A DNA stretch of 55,913 bases from a virus (IMGVR_UViG_3300017751_000001), one strand, 5' to 3'. Shown: positions 6,185-36,869, counted from the first letter of the stretch. The notes: generated by a model not told the origin, from the letters alone. Translations and numbers: made by a program.

Positions 6185-6856
6185 TTAAGAAGCAACATTG
6201 TCTAATACTTGATAACTATCCAATGATACGTTACCTGCAACACATACGCGATACTCACCGTCGAACGCCGCGCCGCTGGTGGTATGATGTGGATACACCA
6301 TATGACTAATCTGACTTGGGAAGAATATCATACGACCTTCCATACCTCTATCAAGTCTCCAATTCTTCTTCAACATAATACCTGTAGTTGATGGATAGAT
6401 TAACTGGAAGTCCCCTGCATAAGGTCTGAACGCTTCGTTGTCCTTCTGTTCATCTCTATAGTCATATGGAATGTTTAACCACACTGCAAAGGACCACAGA
6501 GCGCTGTGATCATGTATTGAGAGATACTCTCCTGGCTTGCTACATCTCACCCAACACCGACTTACACTAATTCCATGCATCTGTGAGGTACACATCAGAG
6601 TGTGCTTACCATACTTCTCGGCATACGTGTTGATGCAAGGACCGAGACACTCTCCCATAAACTTCTCATACGTCTCTTCAGACCACTCGAAGTCCCACTG
6701 AGGTACTTCCGTTCCCTTGACAATTTTATGTCCGTCAAATTCCCACCCCTCGGGAGCTTGTCGAATCAGATCATTGTAGAGACAATCAATCTGTTCCTGG
6801 GTGAGTTGTGCTTCAATAATACCGAAGTTTGGTAGATCAATAACTTGCATCTTCAC
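6185..6856 (-). CDS. 2OG-Fe(II) oxygenase-like protein
   Basis: HDH...IFFPSQISHMVYP...RVCVAGN facial-triad pattern. Confidence 0.8.
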   Translation of the reverse strand: MKMQVIDLPNFGIIEAQLTQEQIDCLYNDLIRQAPEGWEFDGHKIVKGTEVPQWDFEWSEETYEKFMGECLGPCINTYAEKYGKHTLMCTSQMHGISVSRCWVRCSKPGEYLSIHDHSALWSFAVWLNIPYDYRDEQKDNEAFRPYAGDFQLIYPSTTGIMLKKNWRLDRGMEGRMIFFPSQISHMVYPHHTTSGAAFDGEYRVCVAGNVSLDSYQVLDNVAS

Positions 6857-9632: not shown

Positions 9633-9976
9633 GAGAAGATGTAACCGTTGTCGAAATCTTCGGTTGTGAATACACTGTTACCGTTAATAGCACCCGCAAA
9701 CTTTCTTACAAACCACTTGTAATTCTTTTGAAATACTCCCTCACCAGCGATGCAAAACTCATCACAAAGTGCATTCAAACGTGATTTAGTTGTCGTTGTC
9801 TGCCAACCACCATCAAAGATTGTCATGTCGTTGTCAGAAACCTCGGCAATCTTGTTACCGTGGAGACGTACAACAGAGACACCAGTTTCGGGGTCAAAAT
9901 GAACTGAAGTGTTAGCAGACTGCCAATCAGAGTTAGATTGAACAGCGGCACACATTTGAGTTTCGATCTTACGCAT
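9629..9976 (-). CDS. Conserved phage hypothetical protein
   Basis: Start MRKIETQM; LHGNKIA, GGWQTTTTKSRLNAL, GVFQKNYKWFV. Confidence 0.75.
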   Translation of the reverse strand: MRKIETQMCAAVQSNSDWQSANTSVHFDPETGVSVVRLHGNKIAEVSDNDMTIFDGGWQTTTTKSRLNALCDEFCIAGEGVFQKNYKWFVRKFAGAINGNSVFTTEDFDNGYIFS

Positions 9977-10034
9977 GATGAGAGAAGTGAAGAGGGTTAA
10001 GAGTGCGGTGAGGTCGTTTCCCCTCCACTCCTTT

Positions 10035-10092
10035 AATATACAGGAAGTGGCGGAGAAATCCACCAAAAGTGGACGGTTCTAGGGTTGTCACA
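10035..10092 (-). promoter_or_regulatory. Two-box motif promoter, copy 2
   Basis: TGTGACA-N10-CGTCCAC-N28-TATATT. Confidence 0.75.
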
Positions 10093-10309
10093 TCGCCTTC
10101 TTAAGGTAGATTTCGGCCAACCCGATCAGGGAGCCATCCTCTACCGTGGTAGGAAGGGGAGCGGTGTTCCACTTGTGGAAGGTCTTGCCCTCATCGCCTT
10201 CGTTCATAATGTCAGTGATCAGATCGCCTGTGATCTGGATGACGTTGGAACCCTGGTAGGTTGCTCCGTAGTGAGCGGAGAGGATATCGATTGCTTGTGT
10301 TTTGTTCAT
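10088..10309 (-). CDS. Hypothetical protein (GC-rich cassette)
   Basis: Start MNKTQAID just after a -10 box; ~52% GC by hand count. Confidence 0.7.
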   Translation of the reverse strand: MNKTQAIDILSAHYGATYQGSNVIQITGDLITDIMNEGDEGKTFHKWNTAPLPTTVEDGSLIGLAEIYLKKAM

Positions 10310-10315
10310 ACTGAT

Positions 10316-10374
10316 AGTATGGCAGCTTTTGAGCTGAAAATCAAGCGATAGTGTGCAGTTGCCCAACTGGTTTG
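10316..10374 (-). promoter_or_regulatory. Two-box motif promoter, copy 3
   Basis: CAAACCA-N10-TGCACAC-N29-CATACT, includes TTGATT -35. Confidence 0.7.
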
Positions 10375-10520
10375 GGTTGGTTGATGGTATGCTGGGCCAT
10401 CCCCGCTTTTGTGTCTTGAGAATCATGGCCACCACTAGACCAAAAACCTGTTTTTTCCATAATTCTGTCGGGAGTGGGTGTTACGTCATTCGCACCGCTC
10501 CCGATATGGAAAAAAGACTA
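10364..10520. repeat. 157-bp non-coding direct repeat, copy A
   Basis: Ungapped match to 13452-13608, ~28 mismatches by hand alignment. Confidence 0.9.
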
Positions 10521-10544
10521 AGTATCATTCATGACACACACATA

Positions 10545-10790
10545 TCATAGTTTGCTATTCGCAAGTCCAACAGATTTGCAATACATTTCTGATGCTTTCA
10601 TTTCATTTTGTTGATGATAGTCCATCCATGATTTGATCTCTGCTCGAAAATCATTAATCATATCATCCGCAGAAACTTCTTCACTAGCAAGATATTCTCC
10701 TACTATGTCACACAACAAACCGCGAAGATGTTGGCGATATGGAAATGTGTCATTGTAGGTAATGTTGTCAGTCACATTTAGATCAGTCAT
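10545..10790 (-). CDS. Hypothetical protein
   Basis: ORF track. Confidence 0.7.
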   Translation of the reverse strand: MTDLNVTDNITYNDTFPYRQHLRGLLCDIVGEYLASEEVSADDMINDFRAEIKSWMDYHQQNEMKASEMYCKSVGLANSKL

Positions 10791-10963
10791 GATTGTTTTA
10801 GTTGTTGAAGAGATTGAACCGCTGATTGCATTGATGAACGAGCATATCCTGCAGCGAAAGGATAACTCCGATCAGGATTAGTATCCGAACTATCTATCTC
10901 ATGACAGACACGAATAGCATCCTTGAGGTTATCAATGATTCTGTCGATTTCAGTAGTTTGCAT
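10787..10963 (-). CDS. Hypothetical protein (58 aa)
   Basis: MQTTEIDRIIDNLKDAI...SYPFAAGYARSSM...; coupled at both ends. Confidence 0.65.
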   Translation of the reverse strand: MQTTEIDRIIDNLKDAIRVCHEIDSSDTNPDRSYPFAAGYARSSMQSAVQSLQQLKQS

Positions 10964-11157
10964 CAATACTCCGATAGAATACTCATTCGACGTTGTTGAC
11001 GTGGCACATAAAGTGCTGGACGTTTGTAACCATTACTCTTGGCATACTGCACTCGATCGATATAATCATTATACTCATCTGGTGACACTATGTCATCCCA
11101 ATCTCCATCAAAATGTTCATCAGAAGAGTAGCGATCAGTGTAGGAACTGTGCATCAT
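10963..11157 (-). CDS. Hypothetical protein
   Basis: ORF track; coupled stops/starts. Confidence 0.6.
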   Translation of the reverse strand: MMHSSYTDRYSSDEHFDGDWDDIVSPDEYNDYIDRVQYAKSNGYKRPALYVPRQQRRMSILSEY

Positions 11158-11288
11158 TTTGATCCTTGAATAGTTGTTGAGTCATAGTAGTTCATCATCT
11201 GGGTATCACGTTGCGCTAGGAATAGCAGATAACAAGTGATACCGACAAAGATAAAGATTCCACTTAGTAAGTATTGAGTTACTTTCAT
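11154..11288 (-). CDS. Small single-pass membrane protein (44 aa)
   Basis: MKVTQYLLSGIFIFVGITCYLLFLAQRD... Confidence 0.6.
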   Translation of the reverse strand: MKVTQYLLSGIFIFVGITCYLLFLAQRDTQMMNYYDSTTIQGSK

Positions 11289-11289
11289 A

Positions 11290-11544
11290 TCACCAGCGAG
11301 TTTGAATAAGGGCCGAGTTGAAAAGTTGTGGTTCTGTGTGAAGATCAGTCACTTCATAGTTGTACCCATAAACACGATTATCAACCTCTTTTTCAAACGA
11401 TTCTTTGTTAATGTAGGACTTTGATTGCATGTCATTAGCAAACGTAACTGTCTTATACATTAGACGCTCACTAATACTTCCATCAGCATACTTGACGGGG
11501 TAGAAGTCAACAACCATGTTTCCGTGTTGTGCTGTGAGTTGCAT
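11290..11544 (-). CDS. Hypothetical protein
   Basis: ORF track; follows motif promoter copy 4. Confidence 0.7.
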   Translation of the reverse strand: MQLTAQHGNMVVDFYPVKYADGSISERLMYKTVTFANDMQSKSYINKESFEKEVDNRVYGYNYEVTDLHTEPQLFNSALIQTRW

Positions 11545-11571
11545 TTGAGTTGAATTGTTTGGTATGAATTA

Positions 11572-11629
11572 ATTATAGGGCATCTGGCGCCCTATGGGTC
11601 ACCAGGTGGCCACTTCATTGGCAGGCACA
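11572..11629 (-). promoter_or_regulatory. Two-box motif promoter, copy 4
   Basis: TGTGCCT-N10-TGGCCAC-N28-TATAAT; ATAGGGC/GCCCTAT inverted repeat in spacer. Confidence 0.7.
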
Positions 11630-11829
11630 CGGGACACGGTGAGACGGCGGAAACCATAATCACGCCACTGATCGCAAGACTCGTTAACAATACGATCATG
11701 CTGCCTCTCCATGCCCTTGTGAGTCGTACACTTGCGACACTTGCGAAAGTATACGACGGGATGCTGTGGCGACTCAGGGAAGTCAATCTCGATTTTGTAG
11801 TGAGAGTGATTAGCGATTTGAACTGCCAT
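11599..11829 (-). CDS. Hypothetical protein with CxxC (GC-rich cassette)
   Basis: Start MAVQIANH; RKCRKC; ~52% GC by hand count. Confidence 0.7.
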   Translation of the reverse strand: MAVQIANHSHYKIEIDFPESPQHPVVYFRKCRKCTTHKGMERQHDRIVNESCDQWRDYGFRRLTVSRVPANEVATW

Positions 11830-11854
11830 GGAGTGACTTTCTTTTGACTCTTTA

Positions 11855-11912
11855 ATAATACAGGCGGAGGCGAGGAAATCTACAAAAAGTGGACGGTTCC
11901 CCAACTGGTTTA
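11855..11912 (-). promoter_or_regulatory. Two-box motif promoter, copy 5
   Basis: TAAACCA-N10-CGTCCAC-N28-TATTAT-TAAAGAGTC. Confidence 0.75.
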
Positions 11913-11925
11913 TTTCTCTGTACTT

Positions 11926-12099
11926 TTACAGCAAACTAGGGTTATATTGCTTTACCTCGTCAATCAATTCATCATCAGACAAACTATCCAATTCGGCATT
12001 TTGCATGTCCACAAAATACTTTTGCAAATCATCTAGCGTCATTTGACTCAAGTCCCACTGAATAAACTGCTCTTGTAAATCATCACGAATTATAGTCAT
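11926..12099 (-). CDS. Hypothetical acidic protein
   Basis: Start MTIIRDDL with GGAGG SD. Confidence 0.65.
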   Translation of the reverse strand: MTIIRDDLQEQFIQWDLSQMTLDDLQKYFVDMQNAELDSLSDDELIDEVKQYNPSLL

Positions 12100-12386
12100 T
12101 TTACCTCCACTAATTCTTGTTGATACTGCATCCATTGCTCTTCTGTGATCTCATCCACACTCTCTTGAATCACCTGATAGATGTAATCGTTGTTTCCTAC
12201 ATCGTCAAAGATACGTGCAATCAACGCAGGATCTTCTACCTGAGCATCATAATCAAACTCACCATTTTCATCCTTTAAATGACAATCATTCTTGGTATAA
12301 ATCCATGCGCCACATTCTGCATCTTCTCCCTGTTCTTCAATCATTCGTGATACTCTGTCTTGAAGTTGCTTGAGAGTGTAATTCAT
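12096..12386 (-). CDS. Hypothetical acidic protein
   Basis: ORF track. Confidence 0.7.
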   Translation of the reverse strand: MNYTLKQLQDRVSRMIEEQGEDAECGAWIYTKNDCHLKDENGEFDYDAQVEDPALIARIFDDVGNNDYIYQVIQESVDEITEEQWMQYQQELVEVK

Positions 12387-12389
12387 GAT

Positions 12390-12581
12390 TCAATTAGTGG
12401 CGTAAGTTTGAGCAATTGCATCGGACTTAAATCGTCTGCATAACTTAAACAAGAGTTTCAAGTCATCTGCAATCACATATCGAAATGAAGATGATTCGAT
12501 GATAAACTTATCATCTTCCAACCAAACTTGTGGAAGTTGTTTCTTGTAGATTGGGAAATCAGTTGGCATAATGTTAATCAA
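12390..12581 (-). CDS. Hypothetical protein
   Basis: ORF track; start uncertain. Confidence 0.6.
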   Translation of the reverse strand: MINIMPTDFPIYKKQLPQVWLEDDKFIIESSSFRYVIADDLKLLFKLCRRFKSDAIAQTYATN

Positions 12582-12730
12582 CCTCCGAACATGTCGTCGA
12601 ATAGTTGTTGTCCAGAGCGCTCATCATTTTCATATTTCTTTGCATATTGTGCCATGCGTTCGAGTGCTTCATCGCGAGAGATTGACTCAGGGAAGAAATA
12701 CTCACGGCCTGATGGAGTTGTGTAGCGCAT
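12578..12730 (-). CDS. Hypothetical protein (50 aa)
   Basis: Start MRYTTPSGREY after motif promoter copy 6. Confidence 0.65.
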   Translation of the reverse strand: MRYTTPSGREYFFPESISRDEALERMAQYAKKYENDERSGQQLFDDMFGG

Positions 12731-12756
12731 TTGGGTTCGTTTCTTTTGACTCTTTA

Positions 12757-12814
12757 ATAATACAGGCAAAGGGGGCGAAATCCACCAAAAGTGGACGGTT
12801 CGCCCACAGGCACA
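12757..12814 (-). promoter_or_regulatory. Two-box motif promoter, copy 6
   Basis: TGTGCCT-N10-CGTCCAC-N28-TATTAT-TAAAGAGTC. Confidence 0.75.
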
Positions 12815-12816
12815 CG

Positions 12817-13161
12817 TCAGCGAACGTATAAAAATGAACCGTAAGGATCTACGATCTCAGGGTGATCAGTCAAGAAATCAATATAGAACCGAATGCCTTT
12901 CGCAGGTGCTTTATGTGATGCTGGTTTGTAACATGCACCAGTCTCTTTGTCGATGAACATGAACACACCATTATTTGAAAAACTGTTATCAGCATGAACC
13001 CTGAATTGATTCACCTTGATATATTTTTTGCCTACACTATATTCTAACTTAGAGTATGAACTATGTCCCGATTCAATTGCATTAACTTTCCATCGATTGC
13101 TGACAACCTCAAGAAAACATTCGGTGAGATATTCTGTTTTGGATTGAGTGATTGTTGTCAT
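12817..13161 (-). CDS. Conserved phage hypothetical protein
   Basis: GKKYIKV...FIDKETGACYKPASHKAPAKGIRF...DPYGSFLY. Confidence 0.75.
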   Translation of the reverse strand: MTTITQSKTEYLTECFLEVVSNRWKVNAIESGHSSYSKLEYSVGKKYIKVNQFRVHADNSFSNNGVFMFIDKETGACYKPASHKAPAKGIRFYIDFLTDHPEIVDPYGSFLYVR

Positions 13162-13191
13162 GATGATAATAAAAAGTTTGTGAAGTTTGAA

Positions 13192-13380
13192 TCAGAAAGG
13201 GTTAGACCATGACTCATACTTTTTCATGGTGATGTAACCTTCCTTACAAAGTTCATCAGTGAAGCAACTCCATGCTTCTGCTTTTGCAATACTATCTGTT
13301 GCCCACTGTGTGCCCATAGTTGAAACTTTCCAGTTGTAACGGAACTGCTCCAGTGCTTGTGCTTTGGTGGTTGATCGCAT
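13192..13380 (-). CDS. Hypothetical protein
   Basis: ORF track; follows motif promoter copy 7. Confidence 0.7.
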   Translation of the reverse strand: MRSTTKAQALEQFRYNWKVSTMGTQWATDSIAKAEAWSCFTDELCKEGYITMKKYESWSNPF

Positions 13381-13405
13381 TCGGTTGAATTCCTTTGACT
13401 CTTTA

Positions 13406-13462
13406 ATAATACACGATTTTCAGGTCTGTGCGAGTTTAGTGGACACCTTGGCAACTGGTTTG
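13406..13462 (-). promoter_or_regulatory. Two-box motif promoter, copy 7
   Basis: CAAACCA-N10-TGTCCAC-N27-TATTAT-TAAAGAGTC. Confidence 0.75.
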
Positions 13463-13608
13463 GTTTGGTTGGTGGTACTCTGACATGCCCTCGTTTTCCT
13501 ATCTTGAGAACCCTTGCCACCACTAGACCGAAAACCTGTTTTTTCCATAATTCTATCAGGCACGGGTGTTACGTCATTCGCACCGCTCACGATATCAAAA
13601 AAACACTA
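13452..13608. repeat. 157-bp non-coding direct repeat, copy B
   Basis: Ungapped match to 10364-10520 (offset 3088 bp). Confidence 0.9.
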
Positions 13609-13623
13609 ATTAACATTTAACCA

Positions 13624-13932
13624 TCACACGAAGAACTGCTCTAATGGAGTTAAATTAAGTTGCATTGCAGTATATGGAGAAGTTTCATTTATGTTAACTT
13701 CAACACCTACTTTATTACAATTGACGGGGGCATGGTAAGTGTGCGTACTGCTTCTCTTTGTTCTTTTATGTTTGACGAATCCCCAGATACAACGAGATTC
13801 ATCACCATCATTGTAGAGAAACCTACGATCAGATATAGTCCAGATAGCATCCACATTAGTTTTAAATTGTATCGACTCATAGCGGTATCCTTTGGGTGGT
13901 TGATGAATAAAATCGGAGGGAAGTTCGATCAT
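13624..13932 (-). CDS. Conserved cyanophage hypothetical protein
   Basis: ORF track; IWGFVK...YHAPVN...TSPYTAM. Confidence 0.75.
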   Translation of the reverse strand: MIELPSDFIHQPPKGYRYESIQFKTNVDAIWTISDRRFLYNDGDESRCIWGFVKHKRTKRSSTHTYHAPVNCNKVGVEVNINETSPYTAMQLNLTPLEQFFV

Positions 13933-14225
13933 AGTTTGCCACTCACAACGGAGGATCCTACGACTCTAGTGTATTGTTCAAGTGTGCCATCTTGAAGACA
14001 CTTAAGATGAAATCTTGTCATCTGAGTAACACCATCTTCAGTGGCGCCAGTAAGAAAGTTAGCACCATAAGGTTCTTTTAAGACACTAGTATAAAGTCCA
14101 AACCGTGTCTTTTTAACGTAAAAGGCATCATCAATCCAGACTTGATCATCAGGAATATTCTTTTCAGTTGTAGGATTAGAACCTAGAGAATCTCTAAGTG
14201 TTGTTTTTGGTTGTTGATCAGTCAT
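13929..14225 (-). CDS. Hypothetical protein
   Basis: ORF track; ATGA coupling. Confidence 0.7.
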   Translation of the reverse strand: MTDQQPKTTLRDSLGSNPTTEKNIPDDQVWIDDAFYVKKTRFGLYTSVLKEPYGANFLTGATEDGVTQMTRFHLKCLQDGTLEQYTRVVGSSVVSGKL

Positions 14226-16657: not shown

Positions 16658-17215
16658 TTATCGGATAGGAATATTAAATGACATGATTGTTCTTTGATCA
16701 TTACTTGCATTTGGTTGTGATTCATGACCAATTGCAGCAGGGAAAAGTATAATATCACCCTCCTGAACGTCTGGAAGTTGCATCATTAATACTCTACCAT
16801 AGAGAGGATCTAGGTAAGGACATTGAAGCATAGTAGAGGTATGTATCTCGGGATTAAACTCAAGATGGAGAACACCAGATATATTACCAAACCCATGATT
16901 ATGCAAACCATGATAGTCTCCACAGTGATATCTTTGAGTCCATAGTTGAAACTTAGTATAGTCACCATGTCGAGGAAGACCTACTTTTTGCCAAACATCT
17001 TCCAGGGGTTCGCCAATTAATTTCCACCACTTTTCTAGGTATGGATGTGGTGTAACATTGCCAACCTTAAAGAAATCAGTGGTACAAGTATTATTCTTAC
17101 ATTCATCACCATCAAGATCAATCATCTCAAGTAATTGAGGTTTCAACTCGTCCCAATTAGGCAGAGAAATCTTATGAACAGGTATTCCGAAGAGATCAAG
17201 TGATCCGAAAGTCAT
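16658..17215 (-). CDS. 2OG-Fe(II) oxygenase-like protein
   Basis: HGLHNH, ISGVLH, EGDIILFPAAIGHES, RTIMSFN. Confidence 0.8.
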   Translation of the reverse strand: MTFGSLDLFGIPVHKISLPNWDELKPQLLEMIDLDGDECKNNTCTTDFFKVGNVTPHPYLEKWWKLIGEPLEDVWQKVGLPRHGDYTKFQLWTQRYHCGDYHGLHNHGFGNISGVLHLEFNPEIHTSTMLQCPYLDPLYGRVLMMQLPDVQEGDIILFPAAIGHESQPNASNDQRTIMSFNIPIR

Positions 17216-17843: not shown

Positions 17844-18209
17844 TTATTGTAAGGCATCTAACAGTGGATTGGTGGGTATGGTGTCCAGTTCATTCAACTG
17901 TCCACCCTGTCCCCGAGAACCCTTGCCACCACTAGGGTTCAGTAAATGTTTATTTTGAATTTTCTTTGATTTTCGTTTGACAGGTGTTTTGGTACGTTTC
18001 TGCGATTTAGAATATGTCTTTTGGAGTTTTTCTACTCTACGCATGGCAATATCAAAGGAGGATGATAATCCCATTGGATCACCATTGCAAATTACCATCC
18101 ATTTTTTGCCACAAGGGAGTACAGCAAACAACCCATTAGGTGAGACATAATCTTTTATATACTTACTGTTAAGTATAGTTGAATTGTGGTTATGATACTT
18201 GTCTTTCAT
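17844..18209 (-). CDS. Hypothetical protein (3' end overlaps 28-bp site and motif promoter)
   Basis: ORF track. Confidence 0.6.
   Translation of the reverse strand: MKDKYHNHNSTILNSKYIKDYVSPNGLFAVLPCGKKWMVICNGDPMGLSSSFDIAMRRVEKLQKTYSKSQKRTKTPVKRKSKKIQNKHLLNPSGGKGSRGQGGQLNELDTIPTNPLLDALQ
17846..17905 (-). promoter_or_regulatory. Two-box motif promoter, copy 10
   Basis: GTGGACA-N11-TGGACAC-N29-TACAAT. Confidence 0.7.
17915..17942. repeat. 28-bp imperfect palindrome (11-6-11), third copy of the CCACCA-core site
   Basis: GAGAACCCTTG-CCACCA-CTAGGGTTCAG; first 21 bp identical to 13506-13526. Confidence 0.8.
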
Positions 18210-25533: not shown

Positions 25534-26121
25534 TTAGATTAAACTCCAATCTTGACCTTTTTCGTAACCAAACCAGCAAACTATCGAATAACGTATACCT
25601 TTAGTTACTGGTGTCACTTCATGTGGATATAAAAAATTACTTGGATATATGTGAACAGAGTTAGATTTCTTTTCCAAGTCTATTGTTTTCCAGAACCTAA
25701 GTTCTCCACCCTCATAATCATCATTTATACCATATGAAACTGTAACTGAACCAGCATCACCGTTAAGATCCGCATGATATGTTATTCTTCCAGTTTCGGG
25801 ATACTTACATAACCAGTATCCGCTATATTTATTATAAAGATCCATTTCTTCAGGCAGAAAATCCTCATAGTCTGAATATACTATGGGAATAGTCTTTAAC
25901 ATCACCTTATGGCATAAATTCCACAACTCTTCCTCATCACCAGAACGTGACAGGCATACATGAAATCTACATGTTTCTGTATTTTTCATATTATAAAATT
26001 CATCTCCGTTTGGTCTATCGATCTTACCAAAATCAAACTGATCACACAAAGTTATAAATCTTTGGTGATCCTTTTCGTTAAGAATATTGTTATGTGTATG
26101 GATATAATTTTGTAATTTCAT
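25534..26121 (-). CDS. 2OG-Fe(II) oxygenase (prolyl-hydroxylase-like)
   Basis: HAD, YEGGEL.F, YPSNFLYPHEV.PV..G.RYS. Confidence 0.88.
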   Translation of the reverse strand: MKLQNYIHTHNNILNEKDHQRFITLCDQFDFGKIDRPNGDEFYNMKNTETCRFHVCLSRSGDEEELWNLCHKVMLKTIPIVYSDYEDFLPEEMDLYNKYSGYWLCKYPETGRITYHADLNGDAGSVTVSYGINDDYEGGELRFWKTIDLEKKSNSVHIYPSNFLYPHEVTPVTKGIRYSIVCWFGYEKGQDWSLI

Positions 26122-26899: not shown

Positions 26900-26907
26900 T
26901 ATTTATT
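26900..26907 (-). promoter_or_regulatory. T4-type late promoter
   Basis: AATAAATA overlapping the fibre stop codon. Confidence 0.55.
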
Positions 26908-29900
26908 TCAGTTTTTTAATCTCCTCTCTGAGGGAATCAATCTGATCAGATTGTTCCTTAATTGCTTCAATAAGCAAAGGAACAATCTTTTCATACTTAA
27001 CGGTTAGGTAACTGTCGTGTGCAGAATCAGTAACTGCTTCAGGTAGAACTTTTTCAACCTCTTGTGCAGAAACACCAACATGGTCAATTGTTGTATCTTT
27101 ACCAAATTCATCAAGAGCACGTTCGTTAAAGTTGAATGTAAAACCATTCAAAGAACGTACTTTTTCTAGAGCATTTGCAATAGTATTTCTATTGGTCTTC
27201 AGTCGATCATCTGATACGAAAGCAACAACGTCTCCTTTTATTCTTAAGTCATTGGAGTTTGAGTCGTAGGATATTCCAGAATCAACTCTCATTCTAGTGT
27301 ACGCACCACCCCCCGCATTGCCTTTCTGTAGAATAAGATAGTGTGGACCAGAGTCATTCCCTAAACCATTGACCAGAACGTCATCGGTTTTACCCGCCTT
27401 GCCAGTTGTATCTTGGTTTAGTGTTGGAACCACTGAAGCATCAAGTGTTCCTCCTACGATATCATCAGCACTGATTTCAGGAACTACACTAGAAGGTAGT
27501 GTTCCTGTTGTGATGTTTGATGCGTTTAGGTTAGTGACCTCGGAACCATTACCAATAAATTTACCCCTGAAATTAGGAGCATAAACTGAACTATTCTCGT
27601 ATTTGAAATTACTGACTACAACAGTTTGGTTTTCACCAACGTTATGTAAAATGCCTTTGAGCTTATCAACACTCTGTGCCTTAGTCGCATTAGAGGCAGT
27701 TCCTGTTAAATTACCAGTAACGTTACCAGTGATTGTACTACTTACGTTGAGTGTGCCACTAAATGATCCATTACTACCACTTATAGTTCCTCCACTGAAA
27801 CTATTTGCGGTAATAATATTACCTTTAAAGTTGCCAGAACTATCTCGGGAAACAATACTAGCACTACTTTGATTAGTAGAAGACGTATTCATTCCATCAA
27901 GTAAGTCTGCATTAAAGTTGGTGACTTTAGTTGTAGATACACACTTGAATGGTGCGTTACCAGTGGCACAAGTAGATTCAAATTGGAATGATTTTACTTT
28001 ACCATTAGTACCACAATTAATATCCAGTTGAGTGACACCATTAGCAGTATATCCATTCAGATATCTGATCTTAGCATCGGCACCTTGGTCACCACTACTA
28101 TTACCAACTTCCAACTTAGGTGTTTTGATAATACCACTGGAAGAAGGTTCCATGGTAAGTTCTTGCGATGTGATATTGTTAATCGTCGCAGAAGAACCAC
28201 TATCAGTACAAGTAATTGTTGATGTTGCAGTAATTGCCGTACAATTAATAGTAAGAGTACTAGCAGTTTTTGGATTTAATGTAGTTGCTTTAACATCATT
28301 AAATATTGCAGTTGGACCTACAATTTGCTGATCAAATTCAATTTCCCTAATTCTTGCAACAGAAGATCCACCCTGAACTTCTAGATCTCCAGTCAAAGTT
28401 AGATCTGTACCAGAACCAGTAGTATAATTAAGAGTCTTAATAGTGGCACTAGATCCACCATCAGTAACAGTCAGGTTATTTGTTACCTCAAAGTTAGTTG
28501 CAATACCAGATTGAATTTTTGGTTGATTTAGATGAGAGACAGAAGGTGCATGGAAGTTGGTAATAACACCAACATTGATATATGCACTAGTAATAGCAAC
28601 TCTCGAAACACCTTGATATGTTTCACCACCGCCTTGTACTGGTAGTGCTACACTTCCTCCACCAGTATCATCTGGCATACCAGGACCAGTAAGACTTACA
28701 ATGTTTGCATGGCCATTAAGTGTAGATCCTGATCTATTACCAATTGTCAGAACTCCACCAGGTCCAGTAGTTCCAACATTGAAATCAGTAGCAAAACCAG
28801 TTTGAACTACAAGATCTTCAGCAAAGAACTTACCACTACCATTCAGTGGATCTTGTTCTCTTACAGATATGTTACTACAGGTAATGTCACCCTTGATTGA
28901 GTTAATACCAGTGTAACCAGAAGTAATTTCTCCTAGGAAATCAACCTTACAATTGGATTTGAAGGAAACATAAGTACCAACAACTTCCATATCGTGAAGT
29001 CTGGATGTGCCTCCCTCATGTACTTGAGTATAGTATCCATAAGTTTCCCACTTAATACCCTCATCGGAGAATCCACCAGAGAAATTATAAGCATAGAAGT
29101 TTGCAAGTTGTCTAACAACAATGGAGTCATAAGTAACACCAGAGAATGTCTGATTAGATGCAAATGTAACAATACCAGCAACAAATAGGTGATCTAGTTT
29201 AGTTACACCATTAACTTCTAGAGTATCTCTCCATCGGAAAGTAGAACCATCACTAGCACCAATAGATACTTGATCTACGGTGTAGAAGTTTCTATGCTTC
29301 TCTCTAGAAATAACACCAAATCTTCTCCAATCACCCTCGGCATAAATGTGTCCAACATACCCACCATTATCAGGAATACCAATGAATGAAAGGTCACCTG
29401 ATCTCTTAGCACCTGTTGGAGTTTGAATACCAACTGTCATCAATTTACCCTGAGGTGCATTACCTCTCAGGAAGAAGTTCTTAGTTTCAATGCCGGCATC
29501 CGAACTATTAGCAAGTTTTTCGGTGAAGTTTACAGGACCATAGAATTGGGATGTTCTATTGTTATTATCACCACCCTCAACCGTAATTGATTCCCTAACA
29601 AGTAGTTCATCAAATACACCAGAAACTCTCTTAGTTCCTTCTGCCTCAGCATCATCTCCAGTATATGAGAAGATGGGTGCGCCAACAACTTCTTCTTCAC
29701 CAGTAATAGACGATAACCTCTTATATCCAGTATAGAAGTCACCACTGTCATTCATTCCAGTGTATACAACTTTACCACCATCAAGTTCTTTCTTTTGTGC
29801 GGCAAGTGTTTCTATATCTGTTAGAACTCTATCCTGTTTTTGTGGCAGAGATGTTGAGTAGTTACCAGATCCATAACCTAGATATTCAAATGTATGTCCA

Positions 29901-32900
29901 GACGCACGGAGAATAGATGGTCTACGAAGTTCCATTGGAAGAACTGCAATCTTCTTGATAGTTGATCCAACTGGTGCTGAGGTATTAACTGTACCAAACT
30001 GACCACGAAGAACACTATTAATATTATCACTGGTGAAACGCATGATTTCTGAACCAATGACAATATAATCTCCTTTACTAAATCCTTCTGTCGAAGTAAG
30101 AGTAAGTACAGTATCAGTAGAAGTGATTGGAGCATCAACAGTGGTGGAAATACCAGCATAGAAATAAGATGCTCTACCTGCAAGATTATTTTCACCAAGA
30201 CCTAGAGTCTTAGAGTTTGCACTGATACCAGTACCAAATAGTCTAGTATTAATTGTGTCATATGCAGTTATGAAACCAACAGTATGAACACCAACACTGA
30301 AGTGAATACTCCTTAGTGGATTATCATTGTCAACATCATCAACGATAAAGATGTTATCATCCCAATTACCATTTCCAGTTCCCTGAATAGTAAAACAGTT
30401 ACCAGCAACCAAAGTATGGTTAGCATCTGTTAGAAGTTTTACAGAGCCTTCATCTCTGTCAATAACATCAATGTAAGTTACTCCAACACCAATATTTGCA
30501 TGATGATATGTTGGGAGTCTTCTGTCATCTCTGACAGTGAAGTATGGTCCTAGTCCTCTAGATTGTGGAATTTCTACAGAGATTGACTTAGAACTTGGAA
30601 TGTCTACAATTTTAAATGTTCCATTCAGAATAGGATCTGCGAAACCAGATAGGTGCATACCATCATAGATGTTATCAAATACACCAGTAACTTCAACAAC
30701 AGCATTAGTTGTAGGAGATCCTGCTGGGAAAGCAGAGATAGTCATGGTATTACCAATACCATAACCAGTACCACCATCAAGAATCTCTACACTTGTTACA
30801 GTACCAGCGGCAGAAATTTGTACTTTAGCTGATGATTGTTTGCCAGTTAAAGCAACGTTTTCGAGATCTGCAGCATAGATAACAGTCGAAATACCAGAAC
30901 CGTTATTATATCCAGAACCAGGCTCGATAATATTAAGACTCTTAATCTGATTGAATCTATGTTCTGAATCCGTGAACATTGTAAGAGTGGTGTTACCCGT
31001 ACCAGTGACAACTGCACCAGTTACAGCATAACCAACTCTCTGACCTTGCATGAAATATGACAGTGCCTCACGAGTCAAAGAGTTCTGTCTATTATTAGAA
31101 ATTACGTTACCAATAACACTTGCATTAGCATGAGTGATAGATGGTTGTGGATCAGATGTATAGTTGTCTCTATCTTGTTGAGGATATAGATTTCTAATAT
31201 CCTGCGAGAAGGACTTAGTAGATACACCGAAACCAAGATCCTTATCCAAAGGAATAGAACCACAAACGAGAGTTAGGTTATATACACCATCTTGTCCAGA
31301 AGTTCCAGGAATATGTGGTTTAGACTCTTGCACTCTATACACATATAGAGAGTCCAATGCTTTAGATCTTTCAACTATAGGAAGATCTTCAATTTGTTGT
31401 TGCGTAGTTCTCTCGTTAATTTCATTAAGGAATGCACCAGGATCCGTAGTAATACCAGTAATGGTAAATGCCTTACTAGAAACTACATTATCAATTTCAA
31501 ACTCACCATTAAATCCAACTTTATAGGTATTAAGTGGATTGTTAACGGACTCTACATTTTTAACTTTAACTAAATCACCCTCAATCAATCTGTGAGGAAG
31601 TTCAGTTGTGATCGTAATAGTTGTGCCATTAAAATCAGCACTCTTAATGATCTTAACATTCTTAAGTTGAGTTGGGTTAGAGAGATCCGCAGTTAGGAAA
31701 GATGCACTACCAATACCAACAGTCTTAGATTCCTGTAGAACAAATCCAGGTTTAGGAGCACGAGCATCAACATGTTCTTTAGGTAGAACATATCTAACAC
31801 GATACAATCTATCGATAAGGGATCTGTTATCTACTCTACGTTTGACGTATGTTGAACCAGTTTCATCACCAATAACACCAGCACCAATAGTTTGAAGTGC
31901 TGGGAAGATCTGGTTAAATGTTTCACTGGGGTGAGCAATAACATACCACTGTGTATTAACATTATCCCATTGAATTGGGTGTCCAGGATCTCCTGGTAAT
32001 TTATCAGTAACTCTAGAAACTACAGTTAGTTCACCACCACCATTAGCCAAACCAGTTAGAGGTCTACGAGCAAGAGCATCATTACGTGTAGATGCTAACT
32101 GAATTCTATTTGCAGCAAGGTTACCACCAGCAATAGCATAGTAGATCTTATCATTAACAATACCGTTTGGAGTTTCTCCAGTATTAGAGAAGATTCTAAT
32201 TTTCTCACCATTATTGAGTTGGTGATTAGTTGTTAGGGTAATAACATTAGAAATAATAGCATTGACACCAGAATTTCTAATAACTTTATAGTCTTTCTCG
32301 GACTCTACACCAGTTCCTGAAGGAACCTGCATAAGAATTGGAGTCTCATAAGTTTCCTGAACTGCCTGACCAGTGAGAGTATTAACAATACTCAAAAATA
32401 GTTTATCTTCCTTCTTGGCACCAATTCTATAAGAGTCAACCTGTGCAGGTGGAACAATTTCTTCTGTATTATAATTAAAGAGATATAGTCTATCAGTAAT
32501 ACCAACACCAACAGTTTTTGGTGTATCAAGTGTCAACCAAGATGCCGTAGTTTCTGCTTTTTGGATTTCTCTTGGGGGTAGAACGTGAGTGATGTATCCT
32601 ACATCATCACGATTAAACGACTCTGGTCTAAATCCTGATGATTCCAGAGCAGTTTGTCCAAAGTTAGAGTTAGAGTTAGTAATTGAAGCATCACCACCTC
32701 TTTCTGCATGGAAATGACGTGCATATGCAATAGCAAAGATGGAAACTAACTGAACAACAGCATTGTTCCTTACTCTCATGTGAGAGGTTTCAAATGTTGG
32801 TTTATAGATTGCTCTTGAGTTTGAGTGTAGAGGTCTATCTGAATCAGATACACTCAGATCATCATTGAAGATTGCAGTGTCGGGATTGTAGAGAATGAAA

Positions 32901-35220: not shown

Positions 35221-35293
35221 TGGGAGATGTGGGGATCGAACCCACCTTATCCGAATTATGAGCTCGGTGCATTCACCAGATTGCTAATCTCCC
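35221..35293 (-). tRNA. tRNA with CAT anticodon (elongator Met or Ile2)
   Basis: GGGAGAT/ATCTCCC acceptor, CCGAG-CTCATAA-TTCGG anticodon arm, GTTCGATC T loop. Confidence 0.9.
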
Positions 35294-35297
35294 TAAA

Positions 35298-35369
35298 CTC
35301 CCCTTCCTGGGATCGAACCAGGGACCAAACGATTAACAGTCGTTCGCTCTACCGCTGAGCTAAAGAGGA
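35298..35369 (-). tRNA. tRNA-Asn(GTT)
   Basis: TCCTCTT/AAGGGGA acceptor, AACGA-CTGTTAA-TCGTT arm, GGTTCGATCC. Confidence 0.95.
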
Positions 35370-35551
35370 TTGTCTTTTTTATGCGTCTCTAGAAGATATT
35401 CAACAGTGTTTGCTACATCATTCATAGCATCACGAAGCATAGGTTGTTGACCAGAAGTTTGTTCTACTTTAGTAGTGCCATTCTTAAACTCCTCGCAAAG
35501 AGTCCAACGCCATTGACCCATACTATTAGAATACCAAAGATTGATCTTCAT
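35360..35551 (-). CDS. Conserved small hypothetical protein
   Basis: MKINLWYS..MGQWRWTL; GAGG SD; stop overlaps tRNA-Asn 5' end. Confidence 0.7.
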   Translation of the reverse strand: MKINLWYSNSMGQWRWTLCEEFKNGTTKVEQTSGQQPMLRDAMNDVANTVEYLLETHKKDNPL

Positions 35552-35566
35552 GGAACCTCTAGATTT

Positions 35567-35587
35567 AAAGGGGGCATTACACCCCCC
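35567..35587 (-). terminator. Hairpin/terminator after tmRNA
   Basis: GGGGGG-TGTAATG-CCCCC-TTT. Confidence 0.55.
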
Positions 35588-35594
35588 AGAACTA

Positions 35595-35842
35595 CTTGGT
35601 TAACAAGGCTAGTTTAACCCCGATCTCCCATTTAGGCAGTCGCGAGTTCGCGAGTGCGGGAGAATGCAACGATGTTATTCGCTGCGGTGTCAGATGTTTT
35701 TGCATCTATGGTTTGCTTATCCAAGCAGGTTTCAGTCACATTCCGTGTACCCTGTCGAAACCATGGCACCCCCAAGTAATGGAGGTGAGGGGAATCGAAC
35801 CCCTGTCCAGAATGTCGATGATGCAACCTATTCCACAAAAGT
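35595..35842 (-). ncRNA. ssrA: Circularly permuted two-piece tmRNA
   Basis: Acceptor piece ending GGACAGGGGTTCGATTCCCCTCACCTCCA (35780), 6-nt spacer, coding piece starting GGGGGTGCCATGGTTTCGAC (35773); G3.U70; tag ANNIVAFSRTRELATA* at 35632-35682; outer ends approximate. Confidence 0.93.
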
Positions 35843-35846
35843 GGAA

Positions 35847-35918
35847 AGCCCACAGTCGGATTTGAACCAACGACCTACGCTTTACAAAAGCGTTGCTCTA
35901 CCACTGAGCTATGTGGGC
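35847..35918 (-). tRNA. tRNA-Thr(TGT)
   Basis: GCCCACA/TGTGGGC acceptor, ACGCT-TTTGTAA-AGCGT arm, GGTTCAAATCC. Confidence 0.95.
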
Positions 35919-36338: not shown

Positions 36339-36869
36339 TTATCCTCTATAGTCCATGTAGATGTTTCCTGAAATTGTACTGCCAATATTACCACTATTTA
36401 CGAAGTGAAGCAACATTGACGGAAAAATAATAATACTTCCTGGTCCTAGATCTGGTTTATAGTCTGGGGGAAAAGTATGGCAATTGAGACCATACTTTTC
36501 TTGAATGATGCCTAGCGAGGGATTTAGAAATGATGTTTTGGATCTTACCGTTTCATAGATGATAAAACTCCATTGACATACTGGATGAATATGTGGATCT
36601 TGATAATCATTCTCCTTATATACGTTCCTCCACATATGATCAATACGAGGATTCATAGCAATTAGACCCTCGGGACCAAGATTTTTCTCAATTACAGTAA
36701 CTAAGTGCTGCATGGCATCATCACTAATATCTAGTTCAGAATTAAATGATGATGGAGTGTTTGAATCCCAAGTTCCTATAACTTCTTCATCTTTGCATGG
36801 AGGAATCTTGAATAGTTCAAGATCAATAGTGTCTTCAAAGATTGGAATAGCAAAGATTTCTTTCTTCAT
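36339..36869 (-). CDS. 2OG-Fe(II) oxygenase-like protein
   Basis: QDPHIH, WSFIIY, IIFPSMLLHFV, TISGN. Confidence 0.78.
   Translation of the reverse strand: MKKEIFAIPIFEDTIDLELFKIPPCKDEEVIGTWDSNTPSSFNSELDISDDAMQHLVTVIEKNLGPEGLIAMNPRIDHMWRNVYKENDYQDPHIHPVCQWSFIIYETVRSKTSFLNPSLGIIQEKYGLNCHTFPPDYKPDLGPGSIIIFPSMLLHFVNSGNIGSTISGNIYMDYRG

What the first reader, a model, noticed from the sequence alone, without database searches (positions are those of the whole stretch)
10364..13608. 157-bp non-coding direct repeat with a long hairpin, bracketing a 3088-bp module
Seen: 10364-10520 and 13452-13608 align without gaps (~82%). Invariant blocks are GCCACCACTAGACC, AAAACCTGTTTTTTCCATAATTCT and GGGTGTTACGTCATTCGCACCGCTC. 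Copy A folds into a ~65-nt hairpin (TTTTTTCCAT...TCGGGAG.GGGTG-loop-CACCGCTCCCGA.ATGGAAAAAA); copy B keeps the apical stem-loop exactly but has a weaker lower stem. Both abut a motif promoter. The minus strand has loose matches to the E. coli dif arms (GGTGCGAATGA, TTATGGAAAAA) but 23 bp apart, which may be chance. Inference: unannotated structured RNA or ssDNA/cruciform protein-binding or recombination element.
Basis: partly seen in the sequence, partly recalled or inferred. Interest (0 to 1): 0.8.

Follow-up and report, generated by a model that had tools for sequence, protein, structure and literature searches.

The report
Conserved non-coding promoter-leader cassette in cyanophages
The two 157-bp repeats are copies of a conserved, non-coding regulatory cassette of marine Synechococcus T4-like phages, most likely a promoter with a fixed RNA leader that drives a small RNA, a tRNA or a gene; this phage carries two copies because gene modules around the cassette were shuffled by recombination.

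Summary
Window 10364-10520 and 13452-13608 align without gaps at 82.2%, and the three stated blocks are exact.

The window is a T4-like cyanomyovirus (Kyanoviridae) with genes on the minus strand. The element is a family, not a private duplication. It matches 75-93 cultured-phage records, one copy each, and about 45 environmental contigs. It usually lies downstream of an SF2 helicase and upstream of a phrog_336 gene.

It is non-coding and matches no Rfam family.

Its 5' module of about 109 nt never varies in length. It holds ATGAC, 16 nt, then (T/C)AGAAT, which is the best sigma70-like site on the sense strand in 43 of 46 copies. An invariant TCTAGTGGTGG follows about 16 nt after the expected start.

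What follows this module differs between lineages: a CA-rich stretch (both window copies), tRNA-Leu, hairpin RNAs, or a protein-coding gene directly. After that comes the multi-copy terminator/promoter cassette of this region.

The long hairpin is strong in copy A (z -5.2) but absent in copy B and in S-RIM8 (z about 0). Covariation is weak.

Best reading: a promoter-plus-leader cassette for a short RNA unit, duplicated by modular recombination. Transcription was not tested. The dif-like reading is rejected.

Other notes of this scan cover the same stretch of this genome; I found none on other DNA.

The parts
10364..10523 (-). Copy A of the element (sense strand is the window minus strand). It is the extra copy, with mosaic affinities.
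   Evidence: CM score 112.5 bits. Sliding-window nearest neighbours differ along its length.
13452..13611 (-). Copy B of the element. It is the orthologous copy: the conserved phrog_336 neighbour gene 13192-13380 lies downstream.
   Evidence: CM score 115.8 bits. Synteny.
10506..10515 (-). Copy A, 5' arm of the outer inverted repeat (TTTTTTCCAT). It pairs with 10451-10460.
   Evidence: Fold. Helix 1 is 84% paired across 46 copies.
10484..10489 (-). Copy A, -35-like hexamer ATGACG. ATGA is invariant and C is present in at least 90% of copies.
   Evidence: Alignment A2 columns 35-40. Site scoring.
10462..10467 (-). Copy A, -10-like hexamer CAGAAT, 16 nt after the -35-like hexamer.
   Evidence: A2 columns 57-62..
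10451..10460 (-). Copy A, 3' arm of the outer inverted repeat (ATGGAAAAAA). The A-run is the predicted transcription start region.
   Evidence: The start site is inferred, not measured.
10429..10439 (-). Copy A, invariant block TCTAGTGGTGG, about +17 to +27 from the predicted start.
   Evidence: Invariant in 46/46 copies. The search patterns required this block, so its invariance is partly by construction. The 24-mer has 0 chance matches in 100 shuffles.
10367..10416 (-). Copy A, purine-rich linker (10392-10416) and CA-rich block CCATCAACCAACCCAAACCAG (10367-10387).
   Evidence: Fixed offset of 41 nt from the block in all typical copies. Linker is 60-84% purine.
10314..10366 (-). Terminator/promoter cassette after copy A: small hairpin CAGTTGGGCAACTG, -35 TTGATT 10339-10344, TG-extended -10 CATACT 10316-10321. 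The ATG at 10309 sits at the expected +1, so the gene looks leaderless.
   Evidence: Sequence. Same arrangement upstream of homologues.
13572..13577 (-). Copy B, -35-like hexamer ATGACG.
   Evidence: The promoter scan reports 13577-13550, ATGACG/16/TAGAAT, 9 of 12, with TG.
13550..13555 (-). Copy B, -10-like hexamer TAGAAT preceded by TG.
13517..13527 (-). Copy B, invariant block TCTAGTGGTGG.
13455..13475 (-). Copy B, CA-rich block CCACCAACCAAACCAAACCAG.
13381..13454 (-). Cassette after copy B: degenerate GTCCAC box, then TGTATTATTAAAGAGTC promoter and Shine-Dalgarno region, before the ATG at 13380.
   Evidence: D3 family..
10524..13451 (-). The bracketed module: about 11 small early-type ORFs, including DUF7717 at 12817-13161, separated by terminator/promoter cassettes.
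17858..17940 (-). Third, partial copy (block plus CA-rich part, no promoter or hairpin part). It forms the last ~30 codons of ORF 17844-18209.
   Evidence: CM score 17.4 bits, E 0.019.

Best explanation
The repeat is a conserved, non-coding, single-locus regulatory cassette of a subset of marine Synechococcus T4-like phages. Read on the gene-sense (window minus) strand it has five parts. (1) An A/T-tract-flanked inverted repeat. (2) Inside that repeat, a sigma70-type promoter (ATGACc, 16 nt, (T/C)AGAAT), with its predicted start in the A-run. (3) A leader of fixed length carrying the invariant TCTAGTGGTGG. (4) A lineage-specific cargo: a CA-rich unstructured RNA here, tRNA-Leu or hairpin RNAs elsewhere, or directly a protein-coding gene. 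(5) The ordinary terminator/promoter cassette of the next gene. So it works as a short transcription unit wedged between two genes, whose product is an RNA rather than a protein. Where a hairpin forms, it probably also ends or stabilises the upstream transcript, as the stem-loop of a PeSL does. The window has two copies because homologous recombination in these conserved linkers has shuffled gene modules. Copy B is the ancestral copy. Copy A arrived with, or was rebuilt from, foreign flanks. Shown here: conservation, non-coding nature, fixed spacing, variable cargo, mosaic flanks. Inferred: promoter activity, transcription start, RNA product, role of the invariant block.
For: Family and copy number: 75 and 93 phage records match, always one place per record. 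The CM finds one strong copy in two nearly complete relatives and two plus one weak copy in the window.

Non-coding: no codon periodicity (entropy 0.62/0.54/0.61 and 0.43/0.44/0.38 by codon position). Synonymous fraction is 0.15-0.32 in all six frames. Stops, or no start codon, occur in several lineages. Database annotations disagree (21, 46, 48, 80 aa or none).

Promoter: ATGAC and AGAA.T were invariant in the 22 copies gathered with a pattern that fixed only the downstream block. This is the best sense-strand sigma70-like site in 43/46 copies, scoring 8-10 of 12. The consensus scan finds it in copy B. The spacer is variable in sequence but never in length.

Cargo on the sense strand: tRNA-Leu(TAA) starts about 19 nt after the block in L004/L005/L153. 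A 203-aa oxygenase CDS starts 8 nt after the module in L013, with no other promoter in between. The L017 cargo ends in a hairpin followed by CUUUUUCC.

Sense-strand RNA hint: the stem around the block is 87% paired, against 39-68% in slid controls, and uses conserved G-U pairs that could not form on the other strand.

Shuffling: copy A matches different lineages along its length, and matches copy B well only in the central module (0.83-0.97, against 0.57-0.73 in the 3' half). Homologues of the gene after copy A lack the element in 17 other contigs. L147 has the same promoter and first five codons fused to an unrelated ORF.
Against: No transcript data exist for any phage that carries the element, so the promoter is only a consensus match: 8/12 in half of the copies, and TG-extended in only 7/46.

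An antisense sigma70-like site (TAGACC, 16 nt, CATAAT) scores about as well in 37/46 copies.

The tRNA-Leu and the CDS could equally be expressed by read-through from upstream genes.

The typical cargo has no clear terminator. It folds no better than shuffled sequence (z +0.6, -0.5, +1.1).

Neither a promoter nor a weak stem explains why 11 nt are invariant.

Part of the invariance is imposed by the search patterns used to collect copies.
Confidence: 0.45

Rival explanations
1. The element is an RNA element of the read-through early transcript and has no promoter of its own. The long hairpin terminates, stabilises or marks a processing site (RNase E/III/P) between the upstream and downstream messages. 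The tRNA-Leu of some relatives plays the same punctuation role.
For: The hairpin folds far better than shuffles in copy A, Syn33, L006 and L147 (z -4.5 to -5.5). The outer stem is 84% paired, with some two-sided changes: UA to AU in 7 copies, UA to CG in 4, AU to GC in 3, CG to UA in 3. In the S-RIM8 group the stem is followed by a T-run, as in an intrinsic terminator. Cyanobacteria lack Rho (general knowledge), so hairpins are the expected terminators. PeSLs of other T4-type phages combine a stem-loop terminator with a promoter (PMC4122927).
Against: The hairpin is no better than shuffles in copy B, S-RIM8 and L158 (z -0.3, -0.1, +0.3). RNAalifold gives no consensus pairs. The inner stem is only 52% paired. 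A-run to T-run and T-run to A-run swaps in several lineages destroy the outer pairing but keep an A/T tract. The most conserved parts (ATGAC, AGAAT, TCTAGTGGTGG) lie in loops or outside the hairpin.
Confidence: 0.22
2. The element is a DNA-level site: a replication origin of the T4 type (a promoter whose purine-rich transcript primes from an R-loop), or a binding or recombination site for an unknown protein.
For: The architecture is gapless over about 165 bp across up to 25% divergence. A/T tracts are kept irrespective of strand. The region downstream of the promoter-like site is purine-rich and variable in sequence but fixed in length, 60-84% purine. TGGTGG and CCACCA form an inverted pair about 47 bp apart, and three co-oriented copies exist in the window. 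The flanks are mosaic.
Against: No recombinase or integrase gene was seen in the part of the window examined. The dif-like arms have the wrong spacing and are not conserved. All copies have the same orientation relative to the genes, which a transcription-linked function predicts. The purine-rich linker is replaced by a tRNA, hairpins or a CDS in other lineages, so it is not essential to the shared function. The neighbouring helicase does not match T4 UvsW among solved structures. TGGTGG is generally over-represented here, so a Chi-like reading has no support.
Confidence: 0.13
3. The 3' half is a decayed or remodelled tRNA-Leu gene, and the element as a whole is a tRNA promoter plus a pseudo-tRNA.
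For: Close relatives of the window (95-100% protein identity in the flanks) carry an intact tRNA-Leu(TAA) exactly where copy B has the CA-rich half. Copy B shows local similarity to that tRNA region (z 4.7, p about 0.002).
Against: The similarity is not significant for copy A or the other lineages (p 0.02-0.78). ARAGORN and the Rfam tRNA model find nothing at either copy. The CA-rich block is nearly invariant across genera, unlike a decaying pseudogene.
Confidence: 0.1
4. The element encodes a small peptide: MEKTG..SSGGKGSQ on the sense strand, or the ORF that is open on the opposite strand.
For: One antisense frame is open in 40/46 copies and one sense frame in 35/46. GenBank records annotate small ORFs here.
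Against: There is no third-position excess of variation. The synonymous fraction is 0.15-0.32. The start codon is missing in the S-RIM8 and divergent groups, and L124 has ATG TAA. Internal stops occur in L118, L144 and L150. Annotated ORFs differ in frame and length between records.
Confidence: 0.04

Closest known systems
PeSL (promoter-early stem-loop) cassettes of T4-type phages (Arbiol et al. 2010, PMC2839356; Comeau et al. 2014, PMC4122927)
   Same: Both are intergenic and lie in a hyperplastic region of a T4-like phage. Both combine a stem-loop with a sigma70-like promoter. Both are conserved while the neighbouring ORFs are swapped. Here two copies bracket a gene module, the geometry proposed for PeSL-mediated insertion, deletion and mini-circles.
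   Different: PeSLs are about 60-80 bp, number in the dozens per genome, have the stem-loop upstream of the promoter, and end in a Shine-Dalgarno sequence and start codon. This element is about 165 bp and is present once per genome (twice here). Its promoter-like site lies inside the inverted repeat. It carries an invariant 11-nt leader block and an RNA-type cargo. It is itself followed by the PeSL-like cassette of this phage (D2/D3 family).
Phage small stable RNA and tRNA transcription units, such as the T4 tRNA cluster with stable RNAs C and D (general knowledge, not tested here)
   Same: Both are short non-coding units among early genes. In this family a tRNA and a non-tRNA RNA are interchangeable at one locus.
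   Different: There is no sequence or Rfam similarity, no tRNA-like fold was detected, and expression is unproven.
Leader elements acting on RNA polymerase just after a promoter, such as lambda nut, HK022 put and ops (general knowledge)
   Same: All are conserved sequences at a fixed short distance downstream of a promoter, sitting upstream of terminator-containing gene arrays.
   Different: There is no sequence match. No NusG paralogue, N-like or Q-like factor was identified. This is purely an analogy.
T4 replication origins oriF/oriG: a promoter plus a downstream unwinding element, primed from an R-loop (general knowledge)
   Same: A promoter-like site followed by an A-tract and a purine-rich transcribed stretch, next to replication genes.
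   Different: There is no MotA box, since cyanophages lack MotA. The purine-rich part is dispensable in other lineages. There is no experimental or skew evidence.
dif/Xer sites
   Same: There are loose matches to the two 11-bp arms in copy A.
   Different: The arms are 23 bp apart instead of 6. One arm is not conserved in homologues. There is no reason for a lytic T4-like phage to resolve dimers with Xer.

Membership tests
PeSL cassette (T4-type phages) | Intergenic position in a hyperplastic region of a T4-like phage | tested here: met
   The window is Kyanoviridae-like. The element lies between small early-type ORFs, and gene content around it differs between relatives.
PeSL cassette (T4-type phages) | Stem-loop immediately upstream of a sigma70-like promoter, followed by a Shine-Dalgarno sequence and start codon | tested here: not met
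   The promoter-like site lies inside the inverted repeat. The stem-loop is absent in several lineages. A start codon follows directly only in L013. The D2/D3 cassettes next to the element do meet this feature.
PeSL cassette (T4-type phages) | Many copies per genome | tested here: not met
   One place per record in 75-93 phage records. One strong CM hit in nearly complete relatives.
PeSL cassette (T4-type phages) | Copies coincide with insertions, deletions or replacements between related phages; mini-circles form between nearby copies | tested here: inconclusive
   Mosaic flanks and module differences are seen. No deletion or circle junction was found among the fetched contigs.
Any Rfam RNA family | Covariance-model match | tested here: not met
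   No hit at gathering score in the window apart from tmRNA and tRNAs. Only chance-level hits at E up to 10 in 10000-14000. Only the tRNA of L153 was hit in seven relatives' loci.
Structured RNA (generic) | Consensus secondary structure supported by covariation | tested here: inconclusive
   RNAalifold gives 0 pairs. For the hand-drawn structure, 70.6% of cells pair against 69.1% in shuffles, and the covariation score is 0.139 against 0.118 (2/500 shuffles as high). The block stem is 87% paired but has only 3 two-sided changes.
tRNA gene or pseudogene | Cloverleaf detected by ARAGORN or the Rfam tRNA model | tested here: not met
   Nothing was detected at either copy. An intact tRNA-Leu is present only in relatives L004/L005/L153.
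dif/Xer recombination site | Two 11-bp arms separated by 6-8 bp and conserved among homologues | tested here: not met
   The spacing is 23 bp. The XerC-like arm varies between lineages.
Protein-coding gene | Open frame with a start codon in all members and an excess of synonymous change | tested here: not met
T4-type replication origin | Promoter-dependent R-loop priming and initiation of replication | not testable with these tools
   Only composition hints are available.

The most novel reading that the evidence does not exclude
The cassette is a phage small-RNA gene whose invariant 5' block is a seed or protein-binding loop. The block contains UGGUGGC, which is complementary to a tRNA 3' end ...GCCACCA, and in typical copies it can pair in cis with the CCACCA-ACCA stretch of the same RNA. 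On this reading the RNA acts on host tRNA, translation or an RNA-targeting defence. That would explain why some relatives carry a real tRNA-Leu at the same place, and why another small RNA of this genome was read as antisense to a host tRNA. Alternatively, the block makes RNA polymerase read through the many terminator cassettes downstream.
Probability: 0.12. Interest if true: 0.75.

Novelty: new variant of a known kind. Interest (0 to 1): 0.45.

Why it matters
Regulation of early genes in T4-like cyanophages is almost unmapped: they lack MotA and AsiA, and few transcription starts are known. This DNA segment is more conserved than the protein genes around it. It is shared by at least six genera of Kyanoviridae, it is absent from Rfam, and I found no paper describing it. 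That makes it a concrete handle.

It gives a testable candidate for a phage small RNA or leader element with an invariant 11-nt core. It also documents a locus where a tRNA, non-coding RNAs and a protein-coding gene are exchanged behind one conserved promoter-like module. This extends the PeSL idea of regulatory cassettes as recombination linkers to cyanophages, and to RNA cargo.

If the cassette turns out to be only a terminator/promoter linker, the finding is ordinary comparative genomics.

Tried and rejected
- **Known RNA family.** Rejected.
- **Coding, either strand.** Rejected on periodicity, synonymous fraction, stops and missing starts.
- **dif/Xer site.** Rejected on spacing and conservation.
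- **Recent tandem-type duplication.** Rejected. The 3' halves of A and B are as different as copies from different genera, and the flanks match different lineages.
- **tRNA-like fold or decayed tRNA for all copies.** Only copy B shows significant local similarity.
- **Chi-like hotspot.** TGGTGG is over-represented throughout and follows gene orientation, probably from Gly codons. No support.
- **Long-range pairing of the block with downstream segments.** MFE folds suggest lineage-specific partners, for example GGCAAGGG/CCCUUGCC in Syn33 and GGUGGAGAGC/GCUUUCCACC in L150. The partner positions are not homologous, and fold energies are not better than shuffles for typical copies. Left open.
- **Host sequences matching the block.** Two genome contigs pattern scans returned only chance-level or tRNA-like hits in unrelated taxa. 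They gave no cyanobacterial handle, so no host-target search was possible.
- **Literature.** Only the PeSL papers and general cyanophage genomics turned up; nothing on this element.
- **The look-up of encoding contigs.** The window's own assembly is not held.

Full report
**Setting**

The window is from a T4-like cyanomyovirus. Between 1 and about 20 kb nearly all ORFs are on the minus strand. DNA and protein matches are to Kyanoviridae that infect marine Synechococcus: Syn33/S-RIM12, ACG-2014a/b/g, S-CAM8, S-RIM8 and Sf-FS3. The window also carries a cyanobacterial-type permuted tmRNA and three tRNAs. The finding lies in an array of small early-type ORFs. These are separated by a repeated terminator/promoter cassette, families D2 and D3, for example ...GAACCGTCCACTTTTGGTGGATTTC...TGTATTATTAAAGAGTC.

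**The observation**

It is correct. The two stretches align without gaps at 129/157 = 82.2%, and the three quoted blocks occur exactly twice each. The repeat finder extends the pair to 181 nt at 80% identity, with spacing 3088. Similarity falls to background just outside the repeat. On the gene-sense (minus) strand, copy A folds into a long hairpin (-26.1 kcal/mol, z = -5.15). Copy B does not fold better than shuffled sequence (-11.9 kcal/mol, z = -0.34).

**It is a family, not a private duplication**

- blastn against 50,697 phage records finds the element in 75 records (query copy A) and 93 records (query copy B). All are Synechococcus myoviruses, always with one place per record, at 75-82% identity. 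Only a 31-nt core matches in the S-RIM8 group.
- Pattern scans of viral and metagenomic contigs added about 45 further distinct copies.
- A covariance model built on 46 copies scores the two window copies at 116 and 112 bits. It finds one weak third copy in the window (17.4 bits) and one strong copy in each of two nearly complete relatives.
- In annotated relatives the element lies zero to two small genes downstream of an SF2 (DEAD/ResIII) helicase. It is almost always followed by a homologue of window gene 13192-13380 (phrog_336, function unknown).
- Copy B therefore occupies the ancestral position, and copy A is the extra one.
- In a megablast of the 6-kb region against other phage genera, only 16-20% of the query matched. 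One of the few matching pieces ends at the element. So the element is more conserved than most neighbouring genes.

**It is not coding**

- Column entropy shows no three-base periodicity, either in the 5' module (0.62/0.54/0.61) or from the ATG to the end of the CA-rich part (0.43/0.44/0.38).
- The fraction of single-base codon differences that are synonymous is 0.15-0.32 in all six frames, close to what random change gives.
- The candidate sense peptide (MEKTG..SSGGKGSQ) lacks its ATG in the S-RIM8 and divergent groups, is ATG-TAA in L124, and ends at different places in different lineages.
- The antisense frame that is open in 40/46 copies has no start codon in S-RIM8-type copies.
- GenBank records annotate ORFs of 21, 46, 48 or 80 codons here, or nothing.
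- No Rfam family matches.

**Anatomy on the sense strand**

Coordinates refer to alignment A2. Column 1 is window 10523 for copy A and 13611 for copy B. The 109-column 5' module aligns without a single gap in 46 distinct copies. It contains, in order:

| Columns | Feature |
|---|---|
| 9-14 | T-run, which is an A-run in three divergent copies |
| 15-19 | CCATA |
| about 20-34 | variable G+C-rich stretch |
| 35-39 | ATGAC (ATGA invariant, C in at least 90%) |
| 41-56 | 16 variable bases |
| 57-62 | (T/C)AGAAT |
| 64-73 | ATGG plus A-run, which is a T-run in the S-RIM8 group and L158 |
| 76-84 | GGT.TT.G. |
| 85-95 | TCTAGTGGTGG, invariant |
| after 95 | ...GGTT(C/T)TC |

ATGAC and AGAA.T were already invariant in the first 22 copies, which were collected with a pattern that fixed only the downstream block. 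This matters because the later metagenome pattern required them.

Scored against TTGACA/TATAAT, the pair ATGACn-16-nAGAAT is the best sense-strand site in 43 of 46 copies, with 8-10 of 12 matches. The consensus scan reports it for copy B, with a TG extension. The expected start falls in the A-run, which puts the invariant block at about +17 to +27.

An antisense site (TAGACC-16-CATAAT) scores similarly in 37/46 copies, but it is lost in the S-RIM8 and divergent groups.

**What follows the module differs by lineage**

- In about 35 'typical' copies, including both window copies, there is a purine-rich linker. It varies in sequence, has constant length, and is 60-84% purine.
- After the linker comes a nearly invariant CA-rich block, ACAGCATACCACCAACCA...CAAACCAG. 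It starts at exactly the same offset (41) in every typical copy.
- In L004, L005 and L153 an intact tRNA-Leu(TAA) takes the place of the linker and CA-rich block of copy B. The flanking proteins of these contigs are 95-100% identical to the window's.
- In the S-RIM8/L017 group three hairpins follow. The last shows a compensatory U-A to C-G change between S-RIM8 variants. In L017 the last hairpin is followed by CUUUUUCC.
- In four divergent metagenomic copies a single hairpin with compensatory changes follows.
- In L013 and G006 a 203-aa 2OG-Fe(II) oxygenase gene starts 8 nt after the module, with no other promoter in between.
- In every case except L013, the unit ends at the ordinary terminator/promoter cassette of the next gene.

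**Is there a conserved RNA structure?**

Only weakly.

- RNAalifold predicts no consensus pairs on the 46-copy alignment.
- For a hand-drawn structure, the outer stem (T-run/CCAT with ATGG/A-run) is paired in 84% of cells, with a few two-sided changes. The inner stem is paired in 52% of cells. Overall pairing (70.6%) barely exceeds column shuffles (69.1%).
- The hairpin is thermodynamically significant in copy A, Syn33, L006 and L147. It is not significant in copy B, S-RIM8 or L158.
- A short stem that places TCUAGUGGUG in a loop is paired in 87% of cells, against 39-68% in slid controls. It relies on conserved G-U pairs that could only form in sense-strand RNA, but it has just three two-sided changes.
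- The typical cargo folds no better than shuffled sequence.
- The A-run/T-run swaps keep an A/T tract while destroying the pairing. That points to sequence and spacing, not the hairpin, as the conserved property.

**Origin of the two copies**

- Copy A is a mosaic. Its 5' flank and 3' half are closest to the L142/L115 lineages (0.80-0.93 identity in 30-nt windows). Its central module is closest to copy B (0.83-0.97). Its 3' half matches copy B at only 0.57-0.73.
- The genes upstream of copy A have distant homologues upstream of the element in the L017 lineage.
- The gene downstream of copy A (10088-10309) has homologues in 17 other viral contigs, none of which has the element nearby.
- L147 has an element followed by the same promoter and the same first five codons as in the window, fused to an unrelated ORF.
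- A third, promoter-less copy of the block plus CA-rich part has been absorbed into the 3' end of ORF 17844-18209.
- Together these show that conserved linkers in this region, including this element, are places where modules are joined. This is the behaviour described for PeSL cassettes in other T4-type phages (PMC2839356, PMC4122927).
- No deletion or circle junction between A and B was seen in the contigs I could fetch. The only other contig with both copies (L003) is nearly identical to the window.

**Interpretation**

The best-supported reading has three parts.

- The element is a promoter-plus-leader cassette that heads a short transcription unit with RNA-type cargo.
- It is bounded downstream by the next gene's terminator/promoter cassette.
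- In lineages where a hairpin forms, that hairpin also acts on the upstream transcript.

This explains the fixed spacing, the pattern of conserved hexamers with a variable spacer, the constant orientation, and the interchangeable cargo (tRNA, hairpin RNAs, CA-rich RNA, CDS).

It does not explain why 11 nt of the leader are invariant. I consider a binding site for a protein or RNA, or a signal acting on RNA polymerase, the most likely reasons, but nothing here tests that.

The rivals are: a read-through terminator or processing element, a DNA-level origin or binding site, a remodelled tRNA-Leu, and a small peptide. They are listed with their evidence in the rival explanations.

The dif-like idea is rejected.

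**Limits**

- No transcript data exist for the phages concerned.
- The window's own assembly is not held.
- Two genome-wide pattern scans aimed at host sequences gave only chance hits, so no host-target test could be made.
- Part of the reported invariance is imposed by the patterns used to collect copies.

Noticed in passing
window 10309-10344 (minus strand); loci L286-L302: Gene 10088-10309 looks leaderless. It has -35 TTGATT, a 17-nt spacer and a TG-extended -10 CATACT, and its ATG sits at the expected +1. Homologues in 17 viral contigs also have a -10-like hexamer 4-6 nt before the ATG.
   Followed up: partly
L147 (reverse strand), about 200-260 nt after its element: The same promoter and the first five codons (MNKTQ) as window gene 10088-10309 are fused to an unrelated ORF. 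This implies a recombination breakpoint just inside the coding region, a clear example of cassette shuffling.
   Followed up: partly
window 17844-18209 (minus strand): The last ~30 codons of this 121-aa ORF (..NPSGGKGSRGQGGQLNELDTIPTNPLLDALQ) are a diverged copy of the element's invariant block plus CA-rich part. The PHROG match covers only residues 5-71.
   Followed up: partly
L004 5342-5429, L005 10124-10209, L153 5494-5578: Close relatives carry tRNA-Leu(TAA) directly behind the 5' module, where copy B of the window has the CA-rich half.
   Followed up: yes
window 35221-35918 (minus strand): A phage-borne cyanobacterial two-piece (permuted) tmRNA (141.6 bits to RF01851) lies next to tRNA-Thr, tRNA-Asn and tRNA-Met. 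A canonical TTGACA-17-TATATT promoter and a leader hairpin sit upstream of tRNA-Thr.
   Followed up: no
window 9900-13450 (minus strand): A repeated terminator/promoter cassette (hairpin around GTCCAC...GTGGA, a T-run, then TGTATTATTAAAGAGTC) separates the small ORFs. These cassettes fit the PeSL definition better than the 157-bp element does.
   Followed up: partly
window 6185-6856, 16658-17215, 25534-26121, 36339-37519 (minus strand): There are at least five 2OG-Fe(II) oxygenase-family genes and two DUF6445 genes in one 56-kb window.
   Followed up: no
window 26903-34174 (minus strand): A very long ORF of 2423 aa lies among baseplate and tail genes. It was not examined.
   Followed up: no
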